From an uncultured Nitrospirota bacterium (GTDB lineage: Bacteria > Nitrospirota > Nitrospiria > SBBL01 > Manganitrophaceae), in the NCBI GenBank assembly GCA_964579005.1, contig CAZOFJ010000005.1, positions 2,859 to 66,858 on the forward strand: 64,000 nucleotides of DNA, written 5' to 3'. The notes beneath the pieces are model-generated. The model saw only the letters and a list, made by a program, of their open reading frames with translations. It had not been told where the DNA came from and ran no database searches. Both the position numbers and the translations under genes were made by a program. This document shows positions 2,981 to 11,297 of this stretch, in pieces (the first letter of the stretch is position 1; every line of letters starts with the position of its first letter).

Positions 2981-2988
2981 GATGATTT

Positions 2989-3033
2989 TGGTGGAGCTGA
3001 GGGGGATCGAACCCCTGACCCCAAGACTGCCAG
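2989..3033 (-). repeat. Distal att repeat: exact copy of the 3'-terminal 45 nt of tRNA-Ala
   Basis: TGGTGGAGCTGAGGGGGATCGAACCCCTGACCCCAAGACTGCCAG is identical to 11222..11266. Identity extends 3 more T residues (2986-2988 = 11219-11221). The sequences diverge immediately beyond 3033. Confidence 0.95.
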
Positions 3034-3146
3034 AATGTTGCTCTCGCCTACATTAATTCCTTCCTATTGCTTTTCTCTTGCATTATCAACTGTTTCACGA
3101 TACCTTAATTCTTGTGGATTACGACAAAGTACCCTCTATTTCTCCC

Positions 3147-3171
3147 TCTACTGCCTACACCATGCCTACAC
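3147..3171 (+). promoter_or_regulatory. Candidate integrase arm-type binding site (left copy)
   Basis: The 25-mer TCTACTGCCTACACCATGCCTACAC is identical to 11132..11156. It contains TGCCTACAC twice, 11 bp apart, and lies 37 nt upstream of the int ATG. Confidence 0.5.
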
Positions 3172-3207
3172 GGGGCGGACACAAGGCTATCCCAAGAAGG
3201 TATCACG

Positions 3208-4401
3208 ATGAATCTGACAAAGAGAATCATAGATCAAACGGCGTGTCCTGAGAGCGGTCAAATCTTCCTTCGGGACAAATCGCTCCCAGGTTTCGGGGTC
3301 CGACTGACAAAGGGGGCGAAGACGTTCATCCTCGAAAAACGAATCAACGGAAGAAATAAAAGGATGGTGATCGGCCCCTATGGTCCTTTGACCGTCGATG
3401 AAGCGAGAAAGAGAGCGGAGAAGCTGATCGGGCGGATTGCATCGGGAGAAGATCCGGCCGAGGAAAGATCCGAGAAGCGGAAAGAGGCGGCATTCAAAGA
3501 CCTGGCGGCGGCGTACCTGGACTATGCGCGGATTCACAACCAACCATCGGCGAAGAATTTTGAGTACGCCATCAACCGGCATCTTCTCCCCGCATGGGAG
3601 AACCGGAAGGTGACGGCGATCAGCAAGGCGGACGTGTCGGCGCTTCATTCCAGGATCGGGAAGGATCATCCTTACGGGGCAAATCGATTGCTGGCGCTGA
3701 TTGGCCGGATATTCTCCCTGGCGGTCGAGTGGGGATACACCCCGGAGGATCACCAGAATCCGGCGCGAGGGATTCAGAAATTCAAGGAGCAATCGCGCGA
3801 GCGATGGGTGACGGAATCGGAGCTTCCGAAACTTGCGGCGGCGATCAACAAAGATCCGAATCCGTTCGTCAAGGCGGCGCTCTGGTTATATCTTTTGACG
3901 GGATGTAGAAAGAATGAGTTGTTTTCTGCGAAGTGGGAGCAAGTCGATTTTGACCGAGCGGAATTAAGACTCCCGAAGACGAAGGCGGGGCGGTCGCACT
4001 ATATCCCCCTCTCCGAGCCCGCTATCCGAATCCTTCGGGCGCTCCCTCGATTCGAGAACAACCCCCATGCCTTCCCCGGCCGCTTTCCGGGCCGACCTCT
4101 GCAAGGGATACGGCGCCATTGGGACGCGGTGAAGAAAGAGGCGGGGCTCCCCGACGTTCACATTCACGACTTGCGGCGGACCCTGGGGTCATGGTTGGCA
4201 ACATCGGGCGAATCTTTGAACCTCATCGGGAAGATCCTCAATCACAGTACCCCGAGGGTGACGGCGATCTACTCCCGCTTATCGGAGAACAAGGTCAAGA
4301 CGGCTCTGGAAGATCATGGCCGGCGGCTGCTGGCGGCGGCAGAGGTAAAGGAAGATCCGGCTGAAAAAATGGTCGATGCGCTGTGGAGGGCGAAGCAATG
4401 A
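3208..4401 (+). CDS. int: Tyrosine recombinase / phage integrase (P4-like, with N-terminal arm-binding domain)
   Basis: The N-terminus LTKRIIDQ...FLRDKSLPGFGVRLTKGAKTFILEKRINGR is typical of the integrase arm-binding (DUF4102-type) domain. The C-terminal catalytic signature is HDLRRT...LNHSTPRVTAIYSR (R-H-R-Y type). GAAGG lies 7 nt before the ATG at 3208. The gene is adjacent to the att repeat. Confidence 0.9.
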   Translation: MNLTKRIIDQTACPESGQIFLRDKSLPGFGVRLTKGAKTFILEKRINGRNKRMVIGPYGPLTVDEARKRAEKLIGRIASGEDPAEERSEKRKEAAFKDLAAAYLDYARIHNQPSAKNFEYAINRHLLPAWENRKVTAISKADVSALHSRIGKDHPYGANRLLALIGRIFSLAVEWGYTPEDHQNPARGIQKFKEQSRERWVTESELPKLAAAINKDPNPFVKAALWLYLLTGCRKNELFSAKWEQVDFDRAELRLPKTKAGRSHYIPLSEPAIRILRALPRFENNPHAFPGRFPGRPLQGIRRHWDAVKKEAGLPDVHIHDLRRTLGSWLATSGESLNLIGKILNHSTPRVTAIYSRLSENKVKTALEDHGRRLLAAAEVKEDPAEKMVDALWRAKQ

Positions 4402-5090
4402 GCCGACCCAAGAAAGTGTCGTCCGCCGAGGAGTGGCGGCGAGCGGGGCTCCCGCCGGAAGTCCTATCTGAAGAGCTTGCGGCGGAAAAGCGCATCCGCA
4501 CATCTATTGAGGTGAAGAAGGCGGTTGAATCCCTGATCGATCGAGGGCTCCCAAGAGAGGGCGTCAATTCCATCATCAAAAACGCTCCGGGGATTATCTC
4601 AGATTTTAAGCTGCGGGTCGGCGGGGCTACTCTGGCGGAGCGGCGGAAGCGAGATAGGAAATTGGCGGCGCTCTTCCGGAGGGCAATCCCCCTATTAGAA
4701 TCCTATGGCGGCGGCGGTGAGGCTCACTTTCTCGTATTCATGTCCGCTATCGCAGAATCAGTAAAGCCGGATGATCCTACCCTCCCGCTCCCGTGGCCGT
4801 TGGCGAAGATGCTCAATCTCTATGTTTTCTGGCTCACCAATGCAGGGAGTTTCTCCCCGTATCAAAATATTCAGGCGGGGCGGCCTAGAAAAGCGAAGGG
4901 GCCAAGCGGGCTTACTATCTATGCCGTGCAGCGAATTCATTTCTCGCTGATCGAGCTCGGAAAGCGGGAAGGGATTCGGCGATCCCAGACCGGTTTCGGC
5001 GTTCCAAGCTATAATCAGGAGACGGCCGCTATCGTCTCCGCCCTTCTCTCCAAAAAAATCACTCCCAATTTCGTCTGCAAAAATTCTTAA
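4398..5090 (+). CDS. Hypothetical protein (230 aa), island-encoded
   Basis: Its ATG overlaps the int stop (ATGA at 4398-4401), suggesting translational coupling. No recognisable motif. Confidence 0.5.
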   Translation: MSRPKKVSSAEEWRRAGLPPEVLSEELAAEKRIRTSIEVKKAVESLIDRGLPREGVNSIIKNAPGIISDFKLRVGGATLAERRKRDRKLAALFRRAIPLLESYGGGGEAHFLVFMSAIAESVKPDDPTLPLPWPLAKMLNLYVFWLTNAGSFSPYQNIQAGRPRKAKGPSGLTIYAVQRIHFSLIELGKREGIRRSQTGFGVPSYNQETAAIVSALLSKKITPNFVCKNS

Positions 5091-5106
5091 TCTCCCTCCC
5101 CCTGCG

Positions 5107-5153
5107 GTGCCGATTCGATAATTAAAATATCATAATCGGCACGTTTTCTTTTT
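5107..5153 (+). terminator. Rho-independent terminator after the int operon
   Basis: Stem GTGCCGATT (5107-5115) / AATCGGCAC (5134-5142), followed by GTTTTCTTTTT. Confidence 0.6.
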
Positions 5154-5220
5154 GCTGACTCGTTTCGATGTAAAGTTGCTCCGTGATGCTCAAGCTTTCT
5201 TAATTTTCGCGGAGGTAGCT

Positions 5221-5415
5221 ATGAATCTCGTGAACGAAAACGGCGCAGGGAATTTCCTCAATGTTTCTGTTCGATCTCTTCAACAATGGCGCGTAAGAGG
5301 ATACGGCCCAAGGTTTATTAAAATCGGCAGACTGGTGCGGTATAGCTTGGATGATCTCCGGGACTGGGTTGAATCGCAGAGGCGGACCTCAACCTCAGAT
5401 CCTGGAAAGGGATAG
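5221..5415 (+). CDS. AlpA / excisionase-family helix-turn-helix protein (64 aa)
   Basis: GGAGG lies 5 nt before the ATG at 5221. The sequence FLNVSVRSLQQWRVRGYGPRFIKIGRLVRYSLDDLRDWV matches the MerR-like excisionase/AlpA HTH pattern. Confidence 0.7.
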   Translation: MNLVNENGAGNFLNVSVRSLQQWRVRGYGPRFIKIGRLVRYSLDDLRDWVESQRRTSTSDPGKG

Positions 5416-10325: not shown

Positions 10326-10535
10326 ATGAGCGAGCTTGTTTTTCTTGTCGAGGATGCCCCGGAGGGGGGATACACGGCCCGATCCCTGGGGGAGAGCATC
10401 TTCACCGAGGCTTCGGACTGGGACACCCTGAAAGAAAGGATCGTTGACGCGGTCGGCTGTCATTATGCGGATCGTTCAGGCGCTCCGGCGGTCGTTCGTC
10501 TGCACTGGGTCAAGGATGAAGTCATGGCGGTATGA
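10326..10535 (+). CDS. hicB: HicB-family antitoxin (69 aa)
   Basis: SD AGGGGAG lies before the ATG at 10326. ELVFLVEDAPEGGYTARSLGESIFTEA matches the HicB/UPF0150 N-terminal fold pattern. There is a 4-nt ATGA overlap with the next gene. Confidence 0.6.
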   Translation: MSELVFLVEDAPEGGYTARSLGESIFTEASDWDTLKERIVDAVGCHYADRSGAPAVVRLHWVKDEVMAV

Positions 10536-10774
10536 AGCTGCCCCGCGATCTTGACGCGGCGGACCTTTCAAGGAGGCTGTCGCGTTATGGTTACTCCGTC
10601 ACCCGTCAAACCGGAAGTCACCTCCGATTGACAACCACGCAAGGAGGAGAACACCATGTAACCATCCCGGCGCATGGTCCCCTCCGAGTCGGAACCCTGA
10701 ACGGCATCTTATCGGATGTTGCTGTCCACCTGAAAAAGCCAAAAGAAGAATTCCTCAAAGAACTGTTCGGCTGA
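10532..10774 (+). CDS. hicA: HicA-family mRNA-interferase toxin (80 aa)
   Basis: LSRYGYSVTRQTGSHLRL...HHVTIPAHGPLRVGTLNGILSDVA matches the HicA/YcfA pattern (GSH...H...G.L..IL). Confidence 0.65.
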   Translation: MKLPRDLDAADLSRRLSRYGYSVTRQTGSHLRLTTTQGGEHHVTIPAHGPLRVGTLNGILSDVAVHLKKPKEEFLKELFG

Positions 10775-10782
10775 CCCCCCAC

Positions 10783-11028
10783 TTATTTCGCGGCCGGTGT
10801 CCCGGCATCGACGCCCCATCCCTCTTCGATCATATCCAGGAGGATGCGCTCCCCCTCTTCGGTCCTGGCTGTGGCCCATCTTCCGTTATCTGAGACAATC
10901 ACCCCATAAGCCCGGAGATACCGGATCGTCTTGACCCGGGACCCCCAGGGGATCGTAAGGCGGACCGTCTTTCCGGTCGTCACGGCTACCCTTTCTTCGC
11001 TTAATTCGCACCCCCGGAGGTCCCACAA
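10783..11028 (-). CDS. Hypothetical protein (81 aa); only minus-strand ORF in the island
   Basis: Balanced amino-acid composition, but no SD and no recognisable motif. Confidence 0.35.
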   Translation of the reverse strand: MWDLRGCELSEERVAVTTGKTVRLTIPWGSRVKTIRYLRAYGVIVSDNGRWATARTEEGERILLDMIEEGWGVDAGTPAAK

Positions 11029-11097
11029 GCCGATTCTACGGGGGTCGAGATCCGGAAGGCCCCGAAGATGGCCGGAGGGGAGAAGTCTGCACAGAGG

Positions 11098-11130
11098 GGC
11101 ACCCGCTTTTTCAGGGGTGCCTTTTCTTTT
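11098..11130 (+). terminator. Hairpin + T-run at the right edge of the island
   Basis: GGCACCC (11098-11104) / GGGTGCC (11115-11121), followed by TTTTCTTTT. Confidence 0.5.
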
Positions 11131-11131
11131 G

Positions 11132-11156
11132 TCTACTGCCTACACCATGCCTACAC
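11132..11156 (+). promoter_or_regulatory. Candidate integrase arm-type binding site (right copy)
   Basis: Identical 25-mer to 3147..3171. It lies 65 nt from the proximal att core, so the two copies would flank the core in an excised circle. Confidence 0.5.
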
Positions 11157-11221
11157 CGACAAAACCCCACTGGAATAAAAAAGGGGTTGATCTCTCAACC
11201 CCCTGTAGTTACTTCTGTTTT

Positions 11222-11297
11222 TGGTGGAGCTGAGGGGGATCGAACCCCTGACCCCAAGACTGCCAGCCTTGTGCTCTCCCAGCTGAGCTACAGCCCC
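11222..11297 (-). tRNA. tRNA-Ala (anticodon GGC), integration target
   Basis: 76-nt cloverleaf. Acceptor stem GGGGCTG/CAGCTCC has the G3:U70 alanine identity pair. D arm is GCTC/GAGC. Anticodon arm CAAGG-CTGGCAG-TCTTG gives anticodon GGC. T arm is AGGGG-TTCGATC-CCCCT. CCA is encoded. Confidence 0.95.

What the first reader, a model, noticed from the sequence alone, without database searches (positions are those of the whole stretch)
2986..11297. tRNA-Ala-integrated 8.3-kb phage-satellite-like island with a minimal capsid/packaging module
Seen:
- The 3'-terminal 45 nt of tRNA-Ala (plus 3 flanking T) occur as exact direct repeats at 2986-3033 and 11219-11266.
- The distal copy is followed on the minus strand by a perfect hairpin plus T-run. 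That is the tRNA's own terminator, displaced 8.2 kb by an insertion.
- Between the repeats, eight of nine ORFs are co-oriented. In order they are: P4-type tyrosine integrase, 230-aa unknown, AlpA/Xis-type HTH, DnaB-N + RepA-like AAA helicase, iteron cluster, 96-aa unknown, prohead-protease::HK97-capsid fusion, Nu1-like small terminase, HicB/HicA.
- There is no room left for portal, large terminase, tail or lysis genes.

Established: the order int - alpA - rep/ori - (capsid) - terS is the hallmark of PICI and capsid-forming PICI satellites, which exploit helper phages.

Inference: this is an intact, mobilisable satellite with an unusually reduced morphogenetic set. As far as I know, such elements have not been characterised in this kind of host.
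Basis: partly seen in the sequence, partly recalled or inferred. Interest (0 to 1): 0.8.

Follow-up and report, generated by a model that had tools for sequence, protein, structure and literature searches.

The report
PICI-type phage satellite in Manganitrophaceae
An 8.2-kb mobile island inserted in a tRNA-Ala gene of a manganese-oxidiser-related Nitrospirota genome has the standard gene layout of a phage-parasitising "satellite" (PICI), so it is a new member of a known kind in a new host group rather than a new type of element.

Summary
An 8,233-bp insertion is bounded by exact 48-nt repeats of the 3' end of tRNA-Ala(GGC). A ~99%-identical Ca. Manganitrophaceae genome (L089) has the same locus precisely empty, so the insertion is recent and site-specific.

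The island encodes:
- a P4-type integrase with candidate arm-type sites at both ends;
- an orphan 230-aa protein and an AlpA/Xis-type HTH;
- a DnaB-N/AAA_25 Rep followed by iterons;
- a prohead-protease::scaffold::HK97-capsid fusion and a TerS;
- a HicA toxin with a putative HicB partner.

There is no portal, TerL, connector, tail or lysis gene.

This is the canonical five-component PICI layout (int, alpA, rep-ori, capsid gene, terS). EcCICFT073, PmCI172 and phiRv1/2 share it, so the morphogenetic set is not "unusually reduced", and the island is not a cf-PICI.

The capsid and TerS genes belong to one phage head-module lineage (TerS–TerL–joining–portal–fusion MCP), which points to the helper type.

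Sibling elements share the TerS–HicBA arm or the Rep but lack the capsid gene. Portal-less tRNA islands with the same fusion MCP occur in Pseudomonadota and Desulfobacterota.

Helper dependence and capsid function are inferred, not shown. Interest is moderate.

The parts
2951..2980 (-). Native intrinsic terminator of tRNA-Ala. It is chromosomal and lies just outside the island, displaced 8.2 kb by the insertion.
   Evidence: 11-bp perfect stem plus T-run. It sits directly after the tRNA in the empty site of L089.
2986..3033 (.). attL core: displaced copy of the 3' 45 nt of tRNA-Ala plus TTT.
   Evidence: Exact 48-nt identity with 11219-11266.
3147..3182 (+). Candidate arm-type integrase binding sites (P' arm). 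TGCCTACAC occurs twice at 11-nt spacing, plus a degenerate third copy, just upstream of int.
   Evidence: Exact 25-nt repeat with 11132-11156. Four of the five exact TGCCTACAC copies in the window lie in these two arms. The integrase has an Arm-DNA-bind_3 domain. Function is inferred.
3208..4401 (+). P4-type tyrosine integrase (397 aa).
   Evidence: PF13356, PF22022 and PF00589; phrog_1 at 4.5e-57. The same gene call appears in Logan contigs.
4398..5090 (+). 230-aa orphan protein of unknown function, overlapping the int stop codon.
   Evidence: No hit in Pfam, PHROGs, NCBIfam or PADLOC. Only 3 homologues among 1.84 billion representatives.
5221..5415 (+). AlpA/Xis-type HTH protein. The ORF is open from 5152; the likely start is the ATG at 5221.
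   Evidence: PF12728 HTH_17 at 4e-8; phrog_66 'excisionase and transcriptional regulator'. HTH_17 genes occupy the same position before the rep gene in siblings L173 and L181.
5423..6835 (+). Replication initiator/helicase: DnaB N-terminal domain, RepA-like AAA_25 ATPase and a weak C-terminal winged HTH.
   Evidence: PF00772, PF13481 and weak MarR/wHTH at residues 420-461; phrog_19. A 74% identical homologue sits in a Ca. Manganitrophus noduliformans island.
6836..6958 (.). Iteron cluster, the putative origin of replication, immediately 3' of rep.
   Evidence: 5 copies of AAGTTACNT against 0.35 expected in the window. Sequence read; repeat families D6, D14 and D15.
7170..7460 (+). 96-aa protein of unknown function.
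   Evidence: Called as a gene in Logan contig L084. No family hit.
7466..7684 (+). Sigma-70-like promoter (7466-7494), a structured leader of about 190 nt, and a long hairpin (7613-7678) with a T8 run, ending 44 nt before the capsid gene start.
   Evidence: Promoter matches 11 of 12 positions. Fold MFE is -84.7 kcal/mol with z = -5.0. Sequence read. A regulatory role in antitermination is hypothesis only.
7728..9524 (+). Prohead protease :: scaffold-like helical linker :: HK97-fold major capsid protein fusion (598 aa).
   Evidence: PF05065 on residues 308-593 at 1e-44. phrog_617 full length at 2e-152 and phrog_4523 on residues 10-185. NF045541 on 20-225 at 5e-44 and TIGR01554. Homologues carry PF04586. 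His69 and Ser116 are invariant in the alignment. The AF2 model with Foldseek matches HK97-type capsids, best 8gta at 4e-20.
9659..9717 (.). Non-coding block upstream of terS, conserved with sibling elements that lack the capsid gene. Candidate pac or regulatory site.
   Evidence: 72-83% nucleotide identity to L173 and L178 upstream of their terS. Function is inferred.
9752..10240 (+). Small terminase subunit (162 aa from the TTG; the alignment with phage TerS starts at Met12).
   Evidence: phrog_57 at 2e-27. 29% identity (E = 4e-16) to the TerS that precedes TerL in phage locus L023.
10278..10535 (+). Putative HicB-like antitoxin (85 aa, N-domain only), overlapping the hicA start.
   Evidence: 94% conserved together with HicA in sibling L174. 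BLASTP to the E. coli HicB N-domain gives E = 0.003. No HMM hit, and Foldseek finds only weak HicB-type hits. Inconclusive.
10532..10774 (+). HicA-family toxin (80 aa).
   Evidence: PF07927 at 38.6 bits, above the cut-off of 27. phrog_353 'toxin'.
10783..11028 (-). 81-aa protein of unknown function, the only minus-strand gene.
   Evidence: 86% conserved in sibling L174. No family hit.
11132..11156 (+). Candidate arm-type integrase sites (P arm): TGCCTACAC twice.
   Evidence: Exact 25-nt repeat of 3147-3171.
11181..11204 (-). Island-borne intrinsic terminator that now follows the reconstituted tRNA-Ala.
   Evidence: 10-bp stem plus T-run on the minus strand.
11219..11266 (.). attR core, which forms the 3' part of the functional tRNA-Ala.
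11222..11297 (-). tRNA-Ala(GGC), the integration target.
   Evidence: ARAGORN. It is a single copy with no insertion in L089.

Best explanation
The element is an intact PICI-type phage satellite of a Ca. Manganitrophaceae (Nitrospirota) bacterium.

Shown:
- It is an 8,233-bp insertion into the 3' end of tRNA-Ala(GGC). A near-identical genome has a precise empty site.
- All genes are open.
- It has the five PICI core functions in canonical order and no other virion or lysis genes.

Inferred life cycle:
1. A helper phage signal turns on the AlpA-type regulator.
2. Int, with AlpA acting as the directionality factor, binds the arm sites TGCCTACAC and excises the island at the 48-nt core.
3. Rep binds the AAGTTACCT iterons and replicates the circle.
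4. The island's TerS recognises a site on island DNA and recruits the helper's large terminase.
5. The protease-scaffold-MCP fusion is a single polypeptide. In related phages it supplies the protease and the capsid, and by its NCBIfam short name the scaffold too. It assembles on helper portals, alone or mixed with helper MCP, into heads sized for the satellite.
6. The helper supplies portal, TerL, head-tail joining proteins, tails and lysis.

The helper is predicted to be a phage of the lineage with the head module TerS(phrog_57)-TerL(phrog_15)-joining(phrog_5774)-portal(phrog_21)-fusion MCP(phrog_617). HicA with its partner probably stabilises the island or aborts infection.
For: Insertion and host:
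- Repeats and tRNA.
- Empty site: window 1-3045 matches L089 6719-9763 at 99.1%. Window 11216-13616 matches L089 9701-12101 at 98.8%. The two overlap by the 63-nt repeat, and L089 has a single tRNA-Ala.
- Host: PurA clusters at >=90% identity with a Ca. Manganitrophaceae protein.

Gene functions. Iterons. Arm sites.

No helper genes in the window: there is no portal or TerL homologue and no further tRNA, and the ORFs sampled in the rest of the window look chromosomal.

Source of the morphogenetic genes:
- MCP relatives at 56-63% identity sit directly after a lambda-type portal in full phage modules.
- Among full-length MCP loci in genomes, 57 have that portal and 5 have room for one but lack it; 3 more sit too near a contig end to tell. 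All 66 IMG/VR loci with room have it.
- Those phages' TerS is the same PHROG as the island's TerS.

The same layout recurs independently:
- L049 (Pseudomonadaceae): a 9.1-kb island at tRNA-Ser with Int ... fusion MCP - TerS(phrog_57).
- L046, L053, L063 and L067 are further portal-less loci with the fusion MCP; a P4-type integrase was confirmed in L053 and L063 and tRNA-end repeats in L046 and L063.

Modular siblings:
- L173/L174 share TerS (80%), HicB (94%), HicA (95%) and o81 (86%). They have a DUF3631 primase and no MCP.
- The Ca. M. noduliformans island shares only Rep, at 74%.

Literature and reference element:
- The PICI definition and examples with a capsid gene come from PMC10085698, PMC6092414 and PMC6893505.
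- EcCICFT073 was re-read here.
Against: - No helper phage was identified.
- There are no data on induction, excision (the circle junction) or packaging. The Logan contigs simply break inside the repeat.
- The regulator hits HTH_17, not the Phage_AlpA profile.
- Rep has no primase domain, unlike most described PICI pri-rep genes.
- The N-terminal protease domain of this copy falls below the Pfam and TIGRFAM thresholds. It is supported only by fusion-specific profiles and by homologues.
- The role of PICI-encoded MCP homologues is unsettled even in the model systems. Deleting c1499 in EcCICFT073 did not relieve interference (PMC6092414).
- Only one 100%-identical lineage of this exact island exists in the databases, so purifying selection on it could not be measured.
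Confidence: 0.72

Rival explanations
1. It is a defective prophage remnant: a once complete temperate phage that lost TerL, portal, tails and lysis genes by deletion.
For: The MCP and TerS are of phage origin. The MCP's nearest relatives (56-63% identity) lie in complete phage head-tail modules.
Against: - The gene order rep-ori-MCP-TerS cannot be derived by simple deletion from the phage order TerS-TerL-joining-portal-MCP-tail.
- Both att cores are exact, and the element is absent from a ~99% identical genome, so the insertion is recent rather than old and decaying.
- All ORFs are intact, about 83% of the island is coding, and there are no pseudogene fragments.
- Sibling elements with the same TerS-HicBA arm are equally small and also lack TerL and portal.
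- Analogous 7-10-kb islands occur in other phyla.
Confidence: 0.06
2. It is an integrative, self-replicating island that keeps a phage capsid gene and a TerS mainly for anti-phage interference: it would poison capsid assembly or misdirect the terminase, with HicA as an abortive module. It would have little or no transfer in phage particles.
For: - PICIs are known to interfere with helpers through capsid and TerS homologues (PMC6092414 and PMC6893505).
- A HicA toxin is present.
- There is no evidence of packaging.
Against: - This rival is not exclusive of the satellite reading, since interference and transfer are coupled in known PICIs.
- A complete, conserved protease-scaffold-MCP with all family-invariant residues, together with a cognate-type TerS, is more than interference needs.
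- PADLOC finds no defence-system protein, only one sub-threshold hit of Rep to mad8.
- The presence/absence polymorphism shows the element moves. Without conjugation genes, phage particles are the obvious vehicle.
Confidence: 0.15
3. It is a capsid-forming PICI (cf-PICI) or an autonomous miniature virus that makes complete heads by itself.
For: It encodes its own MCP with a protease and its own TerS. Foldseek also matches the cf-PICI EcCI2 capsid among many HK97 folds.
Against: There is no portal, TerL, HNH, head-tail adaptor or connector, and no coding space for them. The cf-PICI definition needs at least 9 of 11 core components including these (PMC10085698).
Confidence: 0.02

Closest known systems
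Gram-negative PICIs, e.g. EcCICFT073 (E. coli CFT073, NC_004431.1 1377930-1388654) and PmCI172 (Pasteurella multocida)
   Same: - The order is the same: integrase, AlpA-type HTH, replication protein followed by ori, capsid-protein homologue, packaging-redirecting gene.
- The integrase has the same three domains (Arm-DNA-bind_3, Phage_int_M, Phage_integrase).
- Size is about 8-11 kb.
- There is no portal, TerL, tail or lysis gene.
- The capsid homologue is of the type used by the helper lineage. EcCICFT073 carries lambda E- and D-type genes and is mobilised by lambda.
   Different: - Apart from the integrase class, the parts are not homologous.
- The MCP here is an HK97-type protease-scaffold-MCP fusion. 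In EcCICFT073 it is Phage_cap_E plus the HDPD decoration protein, and BLASTP finds no similarity.
- Rep here is DnaB-N/AAA_25, not a D5_N primase.
- The packaging gene here is a true TerS (phrog_57). EcCICFT073 has no TerS homologue and is thought to use cos packaging (PMC6092414).
- The island is tRNA-integrated and the host phylum is Nitrospirota.
- Induction by a helper has not been demonstrated.
phiRv1 / phiRv2 of Mycobacterium tuberculosis (classed as PICI by SatelliteFinder)
   Same: These are elements of about 10 kb. Their phage-like genes are an integrase, an excisionase, a primase, a terminase, a prohead protease and a capsid protein (PMC12268328; PMC10085698).
   Different: - Protease and capsid are separate genes there.
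- The phiRv1 integrase is a serine recombinase (my own knowledge, not tested here) and integrates in a repetitive element rather than a tRNA.
- No particle production is known for them either.
SaPIbov5 Ccm (capsid-like size-redirecting protein)
   Same: A satellite-encoded HK97-fold homologue of the helper MCP is incorporated into small capsids (PMC6893505). It is the best mechanistic precedent for what an island-borne MCP does.
   Different: Ccm is a divergent MCP paralogue (23% identity to the helper CP) without a protease domain, and it needs the helper CP. The protein here is a full-length, conserved member of a phage MCP-fusion family, 63% identical to a phage copy.
cf-PICI (e.g. EcCIEDL933, EcCI2)
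   Same: The satellite encodes its own capsid protein, protease and TerS. Firmicutes variants also fuse capsid and protease (PMC10085698).
   Different: cf-PICIs also encode portal, TerL, HNH, and head-tail adaptor and connector, with a median size of 14 kb. All of these are absent here.

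Membership tests
PICI (Fillol-Salom 2018; SatelliteFinder PICI model) | Integrase at one end and specific att sites flanking the element | tested here: met
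   P4-type Int at 3208-4401. Exact 48-nt att cores. Empty site in L089.
PICI (Fillol-Salom 2018; SatelliteFinder PICI model) | Regulation module homologous to alpA, merR or stl | tested here: inconclusive
   The 5221-5415 product hits HTH_17 (4e-8) and phrog_66 'excisionase and transcriptional regulator'. It does not hit the Phage_AlpA profile that EcCICFT073 AlpA hits. The position before rep is as in PICIs.
PICI (Fillol-Salom 2018; SatelliteFinder PICI model) | Primase-replicase module followed immediately by a replication origin | tested here: met
   DnaB-N + AAA_25 Rep. The iteron cluster starts 1 nt after its stop codon. No primase domain was found. Whether SatelliteFinder's five pri-rep profiles would hit could not be tested, because the supplement is not held.
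PICI (Fillol-Salom 2018; SatelliteFinder PICI model) | Capsid-morphogenesis or capsid-homologue gene (common in proteobacterial PICIs) | tested here: met
   Fusion MCP at 7728-9524.
PICI (Fillol-Salom 2018; SatelliteFinder PICI model) | Small terminase homologue | tested here: met
   phrog_57 at 2e-27. Homologous to phage TerS located next to TerL.
PICI (Fillol-Salom 2018; SatelliteFinder PICI model) | Absence of portal, head-tail connector and adaptor, tail and holin genes ('forbidden' components) | tested here: met
   No such hits for any island ORF. No tblastn hit for the portal, head-tail joining or tail-tube reference proteins in the window. About 83% of the island is covered by the listed genes.
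PICI (Fillol-Salom 2018; SatelliteFinder PICI model) | Induction by a helper phage, followed by excision, replication and high-frequency packaging into phage-derived particles | not testable with these tools
   This needs read-level or wet-lab data. The assemblies break inside the repeat.
cf-PICI | At least 9 of 11 core components, including TerL, portal, head-tail adaptor, head-tail connector and HNH | tested here: not met
   Only int, regulator, rep, terS and capsid(+protease) are present. Definition taken from PMC10085698.
P4-like satellites | psu-delta-sid operon, epsilon and alpha primase | tested here: not met
   No island ORF hits these families in Pfam or PHROGs. Only the integrase class and the AlpA-like HTH are shared.
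Defective or complete prophage of the fusion-MCP phage lineage | Head module collinear with TerS-TerL-joining-portal-MCP-tail, or remnants of it | tested here: not met
   Phage order established in L002, L023 and L031. In the island, MCP is followed by TerS, with no remnants between or around them.
HicAB toxin-antitoxin | HicA toxin domain | tested here: met
   PF07927 at 38.6 bits, above the cut-off of 27.
HicAB toxin-antitoxin | HicB antitoxin (RNase-H-like N-domain, usually with a DNA-binding C-domain) | tested here: inconclusive
   No HMM hit. BLASTP to the E. coli HicB N-domain gives E = 0.003 over 52 aa. The single-sequence AF2 model has pLDDT 72, and Foldseek finds nothing at E <= 1e-3, though 2yzt, 6hpb_B and 3k6q appear weakly. 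There is no C-terminal DNA-binding domain. It overlaps hicA and is co-conserved with it.

The most novel reading that the evidence does not exclude
Islands like this one may form a recurrent, so far unnamed intermediate between classical PICIs and cf-PICIs. These would be 'single-gene capsid' satellites that repeatedly captured the phage protease-scaffold-MCP fusion gene. That one gene would suffice to build a satellite-specific shell on stolen portals.

Two observations fit this:
- Captures appear to have happened at least three or four times, in Nitrospirota, Pseudomonadota and Desulfobacterota. The portal-less loci are scattered in the MCP tree.
- Here the MCP-terS operon sits behind a constitutive-looking promoter, a structured leader and a terminator. 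This resembles lambda pR'-tR', so it could be read only when the helper's late antiterminator is present.
Probability: 0.25. Interest if true: 0.6.

Novelty: new member of a known kind. Interest (0 to 1): 0.4.

Why it matters
- It extends PICI-type satellites to Nitrospirota, specifically to the Ca. Manganitrophaceae lineage of manganese-oxidising chemolithoautotrophs. No satellite, and hardly any phage biology, has been described there.
- The natural filled/empty pair gives exact att sites. The capsid and TerS types predict what the helper phage should look like, which makes a search for it concrete.
- A related element with a 74%-identical Rep sits in the cultivated Ca. Manganitrophus noduliformans. 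Induction experiments are therefore conceivable.
- The survey shows that a few percent of genomic copies of a very large phage MCP-fusion family (more than 5,900 members) sit in portal-less tRNA islands. This bears on the open question of what satellite-encoded capsid homologues do.

Tried and rejected
1. Exact look-up of the window's MCP and of P0001 for their contig: not on record. The host was instead inferred from the PurA cluster name.
2. Circle or empty-site junctions in Logan contigs: three runs carry 100%-identical island pieces, but every contig ends 30 nt into the repeat, so they give no junction information.
3. IMG/VR scans with TerS and Rep: no relatives. The MCP scan returned only portal-linked phages or loci too close to a contig end to tell.
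4. Helper prophage inside the window: none. The ORFs sampled elsewhere in the window are chromosomal in type: multicopper oxidases, hemerythrin, regulators, CinA and LigT.
5. Defence content: PADLOC found nothing beyond one sub-threshold hit of Rep to mad8.
6. Known RNA families in the island: only the tRNA and tRNA-like hits, plus a sub-threshold ctRNA hit on a terminator hairpin.
7. Function of the 230-aa ORF: only 3 homologues among 1.84 billion representatives and no family. Left unknown.
8. PDB sequence search with the N-terminal protease domain: nothing significant.
9. HicB by structure: inconclusive.
10. The first CFT073 region fetched was a lambdoid prophage, not EcCICFT073. The right region was found on the second try.
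11. The SatelliteFinder profile list was not available as a held supplement, so formal classification could not be reproduced.
12. The cf-PICI, P4-like and decayed-prophage readings were considered and rejected on gene content and order.

Full report
**Observation**

- ARAGORN finds one tRNA in the whole 64-kb window: tRNA-Ala(GGC) at 11222-11297 on the minus strand.
- The 48 nt at 2986-3033 are identical to 11219-11266, that is 45 nt of the tRNA 3' end plus TTT. Weaker similarity extends to 63 nt.
- A perfect 11-bp hairpin with a T-run (2951-2980, minus strand) follows the distal copy.
  - Each copy holds two TGCCTACAC units 11 nt apart. Four of the five exact copies of that 9-mer in the window are in these two arms.
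  - The integrase has an Arm-DNA-bind_3 domain, so these are good candidates for arm-type sites on either side of the attP core. This is inference.

**A natural empty site**

- The flanking PurA is at least 90% identical to a protein named 'Candidatus Manganitrophaceae bacterium'.
- A 13.5-kb contig of another such MAG (GCA_049651725.1, locus L089) aligns as follows:
  - window 1-3045 at 99.1%;
  - window 11216-13616 at 98.8%;
  - the two alignments overlap by exactly the 63-nt repeat region.
- L089 has a single intact tRNA-Ala followed directly by the hairpin terminator.
- The 8,233 bp between the cores are therefore a recent, precise, site-specific insertion.
- The 2951-2980 hairpin is the tRNA's own terminator, and the island supplies a substitute terminator at 11181-11204.
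- Island GC is 55.3% against 56.7% for the flanks.

**Gene content**

| Coordinates | Product | Evidence |
|---|---|---|
| 3208-4401 | Integrase | Arm-DNA-bind_3, Phage_int_M, Phage_integrase |
| 4398-5090 | 230-aa orphan | 3 homologues among 1.84 billion representatives |
| 5221-5415 | HTH_17/excisionase-type protein | Pfam and phrog_66 |
| 5423-6835 | Rep | DnaB-N, AAA_25, weak C-terminal wHTH |
| 6836-6958 | Iterons | 5 AAGTTACNT against 0.35 expected |
| 7170-7460 | 96-aa unknown | no family hit |
| 7728-9524 | 598-aa fusion MCP | see below |
| 9752-10240 | TerS | phrog_57, 2e-27 |
| 10278-10535 | 85-aa ORF overlapping hicA | no HMM hit |
| 10532-10774 | HicA | PF07927, above cut-off |
| 10783-11028 (minus) | 81-aa ORF | no family hit |

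- These genes cover about 83% of the island, which leaves no room for portal, TerL, tail or lysis genes.
- The HicB label is only weakly supported:
  - BLASTP to the E. coli HicB N-domain gives E = 0.003;
  - Foldseek gives only non-significant HicB-type hits;
  - there is no HMM hit.
- The 'Nu1-like' label for TerS was not reproduced.

**The capsid gene**

- The C-terminal half is Phage_capsid/TIGR01554. The whole protein matches phrog_617 end to end (2e-152).
- Residues 10-225 match 'major head and protease' (phrog_4523) and NCBIfam NF045541, 'prohead protease/major capsid protein fusion'.
- More than 5,900 homologues exist, and most carry Peptidase_S78 plus Phage_capsid. His69 and Ser116 are invariant in the 25-sequence alignment.
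- An AlphaFold model (pLDDT 71) shows three regions:
  - a confident beta-rich N-domain;
  - a disordered linker followed by a helical segment;
  - an HK97-fold C-domain, with Foldseek best hit 8gta at E = 4e-20 and further hits to GTA, HK97, SaPI1 and cf-PICI EcCI2 capsids.

**Where the morphogenetic genes come from**

- The closest MCPs (63% and 56% identity) sit directly after a lambda-type portal in full head-tail modules.
- Among full-length MCP loci from a genome scan, 57 have that portal immediately upstream and 5 have room for one but lack it; 3 more are too near a contig end to tell. All 66 IMG/VR loci with room have it.
- The phage order is TerS(phrog_57)-TerL(phrog_15)-small-joining(phrog_5774)-portal(phrog_21)-fusion MCP.
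- The island's TerS belongs to the same PHROG and aligns with such a TerS at E = 4e-16.
- MCP and TerS therefore derive from one phage head-module lineage. In the island, however, MCP is followed by TerS, an order that deletion from the phage cannot produce.
- In a rough neighbour-joining tree the island MCP nests among portal-linked phage copies.

**Relatives of the island**

- Five genome loci carry the fusion MCP without a portal.
  - L049 (Pseudomonadaceae) is a 9.1-kb island bounded by a repeat of the tRNA-Ser 3' end. It has a P4-type Int, the fusion MCP and a phrog_57 TerS directly downstream, the same layout as here.
  - L046 (Desulfobacteraceae) is a 9.7-kb tRNA-SeC island with MerR, iterons, DnaB and the MCP.
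  - L063 and L053 are tRNA-Leu islands with Int and the MCP.
  - L067 also lacks a portal, but no integrase or tRNA-end repeat was found in the part of it that was examined.
  - In the tree these portal-less loci are scattered, which suggests several independent captures (crude method).
- Only six TerS homologues exist in 5.8 billion proteins.
  - The closest (80%) lies in a small element (L173/L174) with another integrase, HTH_17, a DUF3631 primase, unknown small genes, then TerS-HicB(94%)-HicA(95%)-o81(86%). Nucleotide homology runs up to window position 11130. This element has no MCP.
- The closest Rep (74%) is in a tRNA-Arg island of Ca. Manganitrophus noduliformans that shares nothing else with this island.
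- The element is thus one mosaic member of a pool of small tRNA-integrating elements in this family. The capsid gene is an exchangeable module.

**Comparison with what is known**

- SatelliteFinder defines PICIs by five core components: integrase, alpA/merR/stl, primase-replicase, a capsid-morphogenesis gene (commoner in Proteobacteria) and terS. Median size is 9.5 kb, and portal, connector, tail and holin genes are forbidden (PMC10085698).
- phiRv1/2 are classed there. phiRv1 carries an integrase, excisionase, primase, terminase, prohead protease and capsid gene.
- EcCICFT073 encodes a capsid protein and a decoration protein, PmCI172 an MCP homologue, and SaPIbov5 the capsid-like Ccm (PMC6092414 and PMC6893505).
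- I re-read EcCICFT073 in CFT073. It has an Int with the same three domains, AlpA, a D5_N primase, a Phage_cap_E MCP and an HDPD decoration protein. Its MCP has no sequence similarity to the one here.
- cf-PICIs need at least 9 of 11 components, including TerL, portal and connectors, which this island lacks.
- VEIMEs and PICMIs lack capsid genes, and the Streptomyces satellites carry full head modules.
- The island therefore fits the PICI architecture feature by feature. Its parts are non-homologous to the model PICIs, and its host phylum is new: no paper in the library joins Nitrospir* with PICI or phage satellite.

**Mechanism**

- Shown: site-specific insertion, intact genes and the PICI layout.
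- Inferred:
  1. helper-triggered AlpA expression;
  2. Int/AlpA excision at the 48-nt core;
  3. Rep-iteron replication;
  4. TerS-directed packaging by the helper's TerL;
  5. use of the fusion MCP on helper portals to make or remodel capsids;
  6. helper portal, joining proteins, tails and lysis;
  7. HicA as a stabiliser or abortive module.
- One further feature may matter. A sigma-70-like promoter (7466-7494) is followed by a strongly structured leader of about 190 nt (z = -5.0), which ends in a long hairpin plus T8 just before the MCP start. This resembles a late-operon antitermination cassette, but that reading is speculative.

**Verdict**

- The 'unusually reduced' claim is not upheld.
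- It is a new member of a known kind, of moderate interest.

Noticed in passing
window 7466-7684: A promoter-like site matching 11 of 12 positions is followed by a highly structured leader of about 190 nt (MFE -84.7 kcal/mol, z = -5.0). The leader ends in a long hairpin plus T8, 44 nt upstream of the capsid gene. The arrangement is reminiscent of lambda pR'-tR' late-gene antitermination.
   Followed up: partly
window 7047-7143 and 9659-9717: Two non-coding blocks are conserved at 72-83% nucleotide identity with sibling elements L173, L174 and L178. Those elements lack the capsid gene. The second block lies just upstream of terS and could be a pac or regulatory site.
   Followed up: no
window 1-2832 and 14190-22112: The island and purA lie between two paralogous loci. 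Each has a giant multicopper oxidase (about 1,600 aa) and a hemerythrin, at 76% and 71% nucleotide identity. In a Manganitrophaceae genome these are candidate manganese-oxidation genes.
   Followed up: no
window 12798-12901 and 48259-48360: A 104-nt inverted repeat at 93% identity. One copy lies just downstream of purA and the other 35 kb away. Its nature is unknown.
   Followed up: no
L181 (Ca. Manganitrophus noduliformans VTOW01000002.1, locus 7319-21000): A tRNA-Arg(CCT)-integrated element has a 74%-identical Rep and an HTH_17 gene. Instead of MCP and TerS it carries a 759-aa protein with a PhageMin_Tail (tape-measure) domain and a second integrase. It sits next to TraG_N and SLT genes.
   Followed up: partly
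L173/L174 (Logan SRR28285590, SRR33230363): A sibling satellite-like element shares TerS-HicB-HicA-o81 with the window island. It has a DUF3631 primase, an unannotated 179-aa gene where the MCP would be, and an extra 37-aa ORF after terS. The closest phage MCP (L001) comes from SRR33230365, an adjacent run accession.
   Followed up: partly
L049, L046, L053, L063, L067 (genome-contig loci): Portal-less loci carry the same protease::MCP fusion in Pseudomonadaceae, Desulfobacteraceae, Thiobacillus and other Pseudomonadota MAGs. tRNA-end repeats bound the 7-10-kb islands in L049, L046 and L063. L049 also has a phrog_57 TerS directly after the MCP.
   Followed up: partly
window 11093-11132: A plus-strand hairpin with a T-run ends the rightward island operon just before the P-arm repeats. 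It gives a sub-threshold Rfam hit to ctRNA_p42d (28.5 bits against a gathering score of 50), most likely because it is a terminator hairpin.
   Followed up: no
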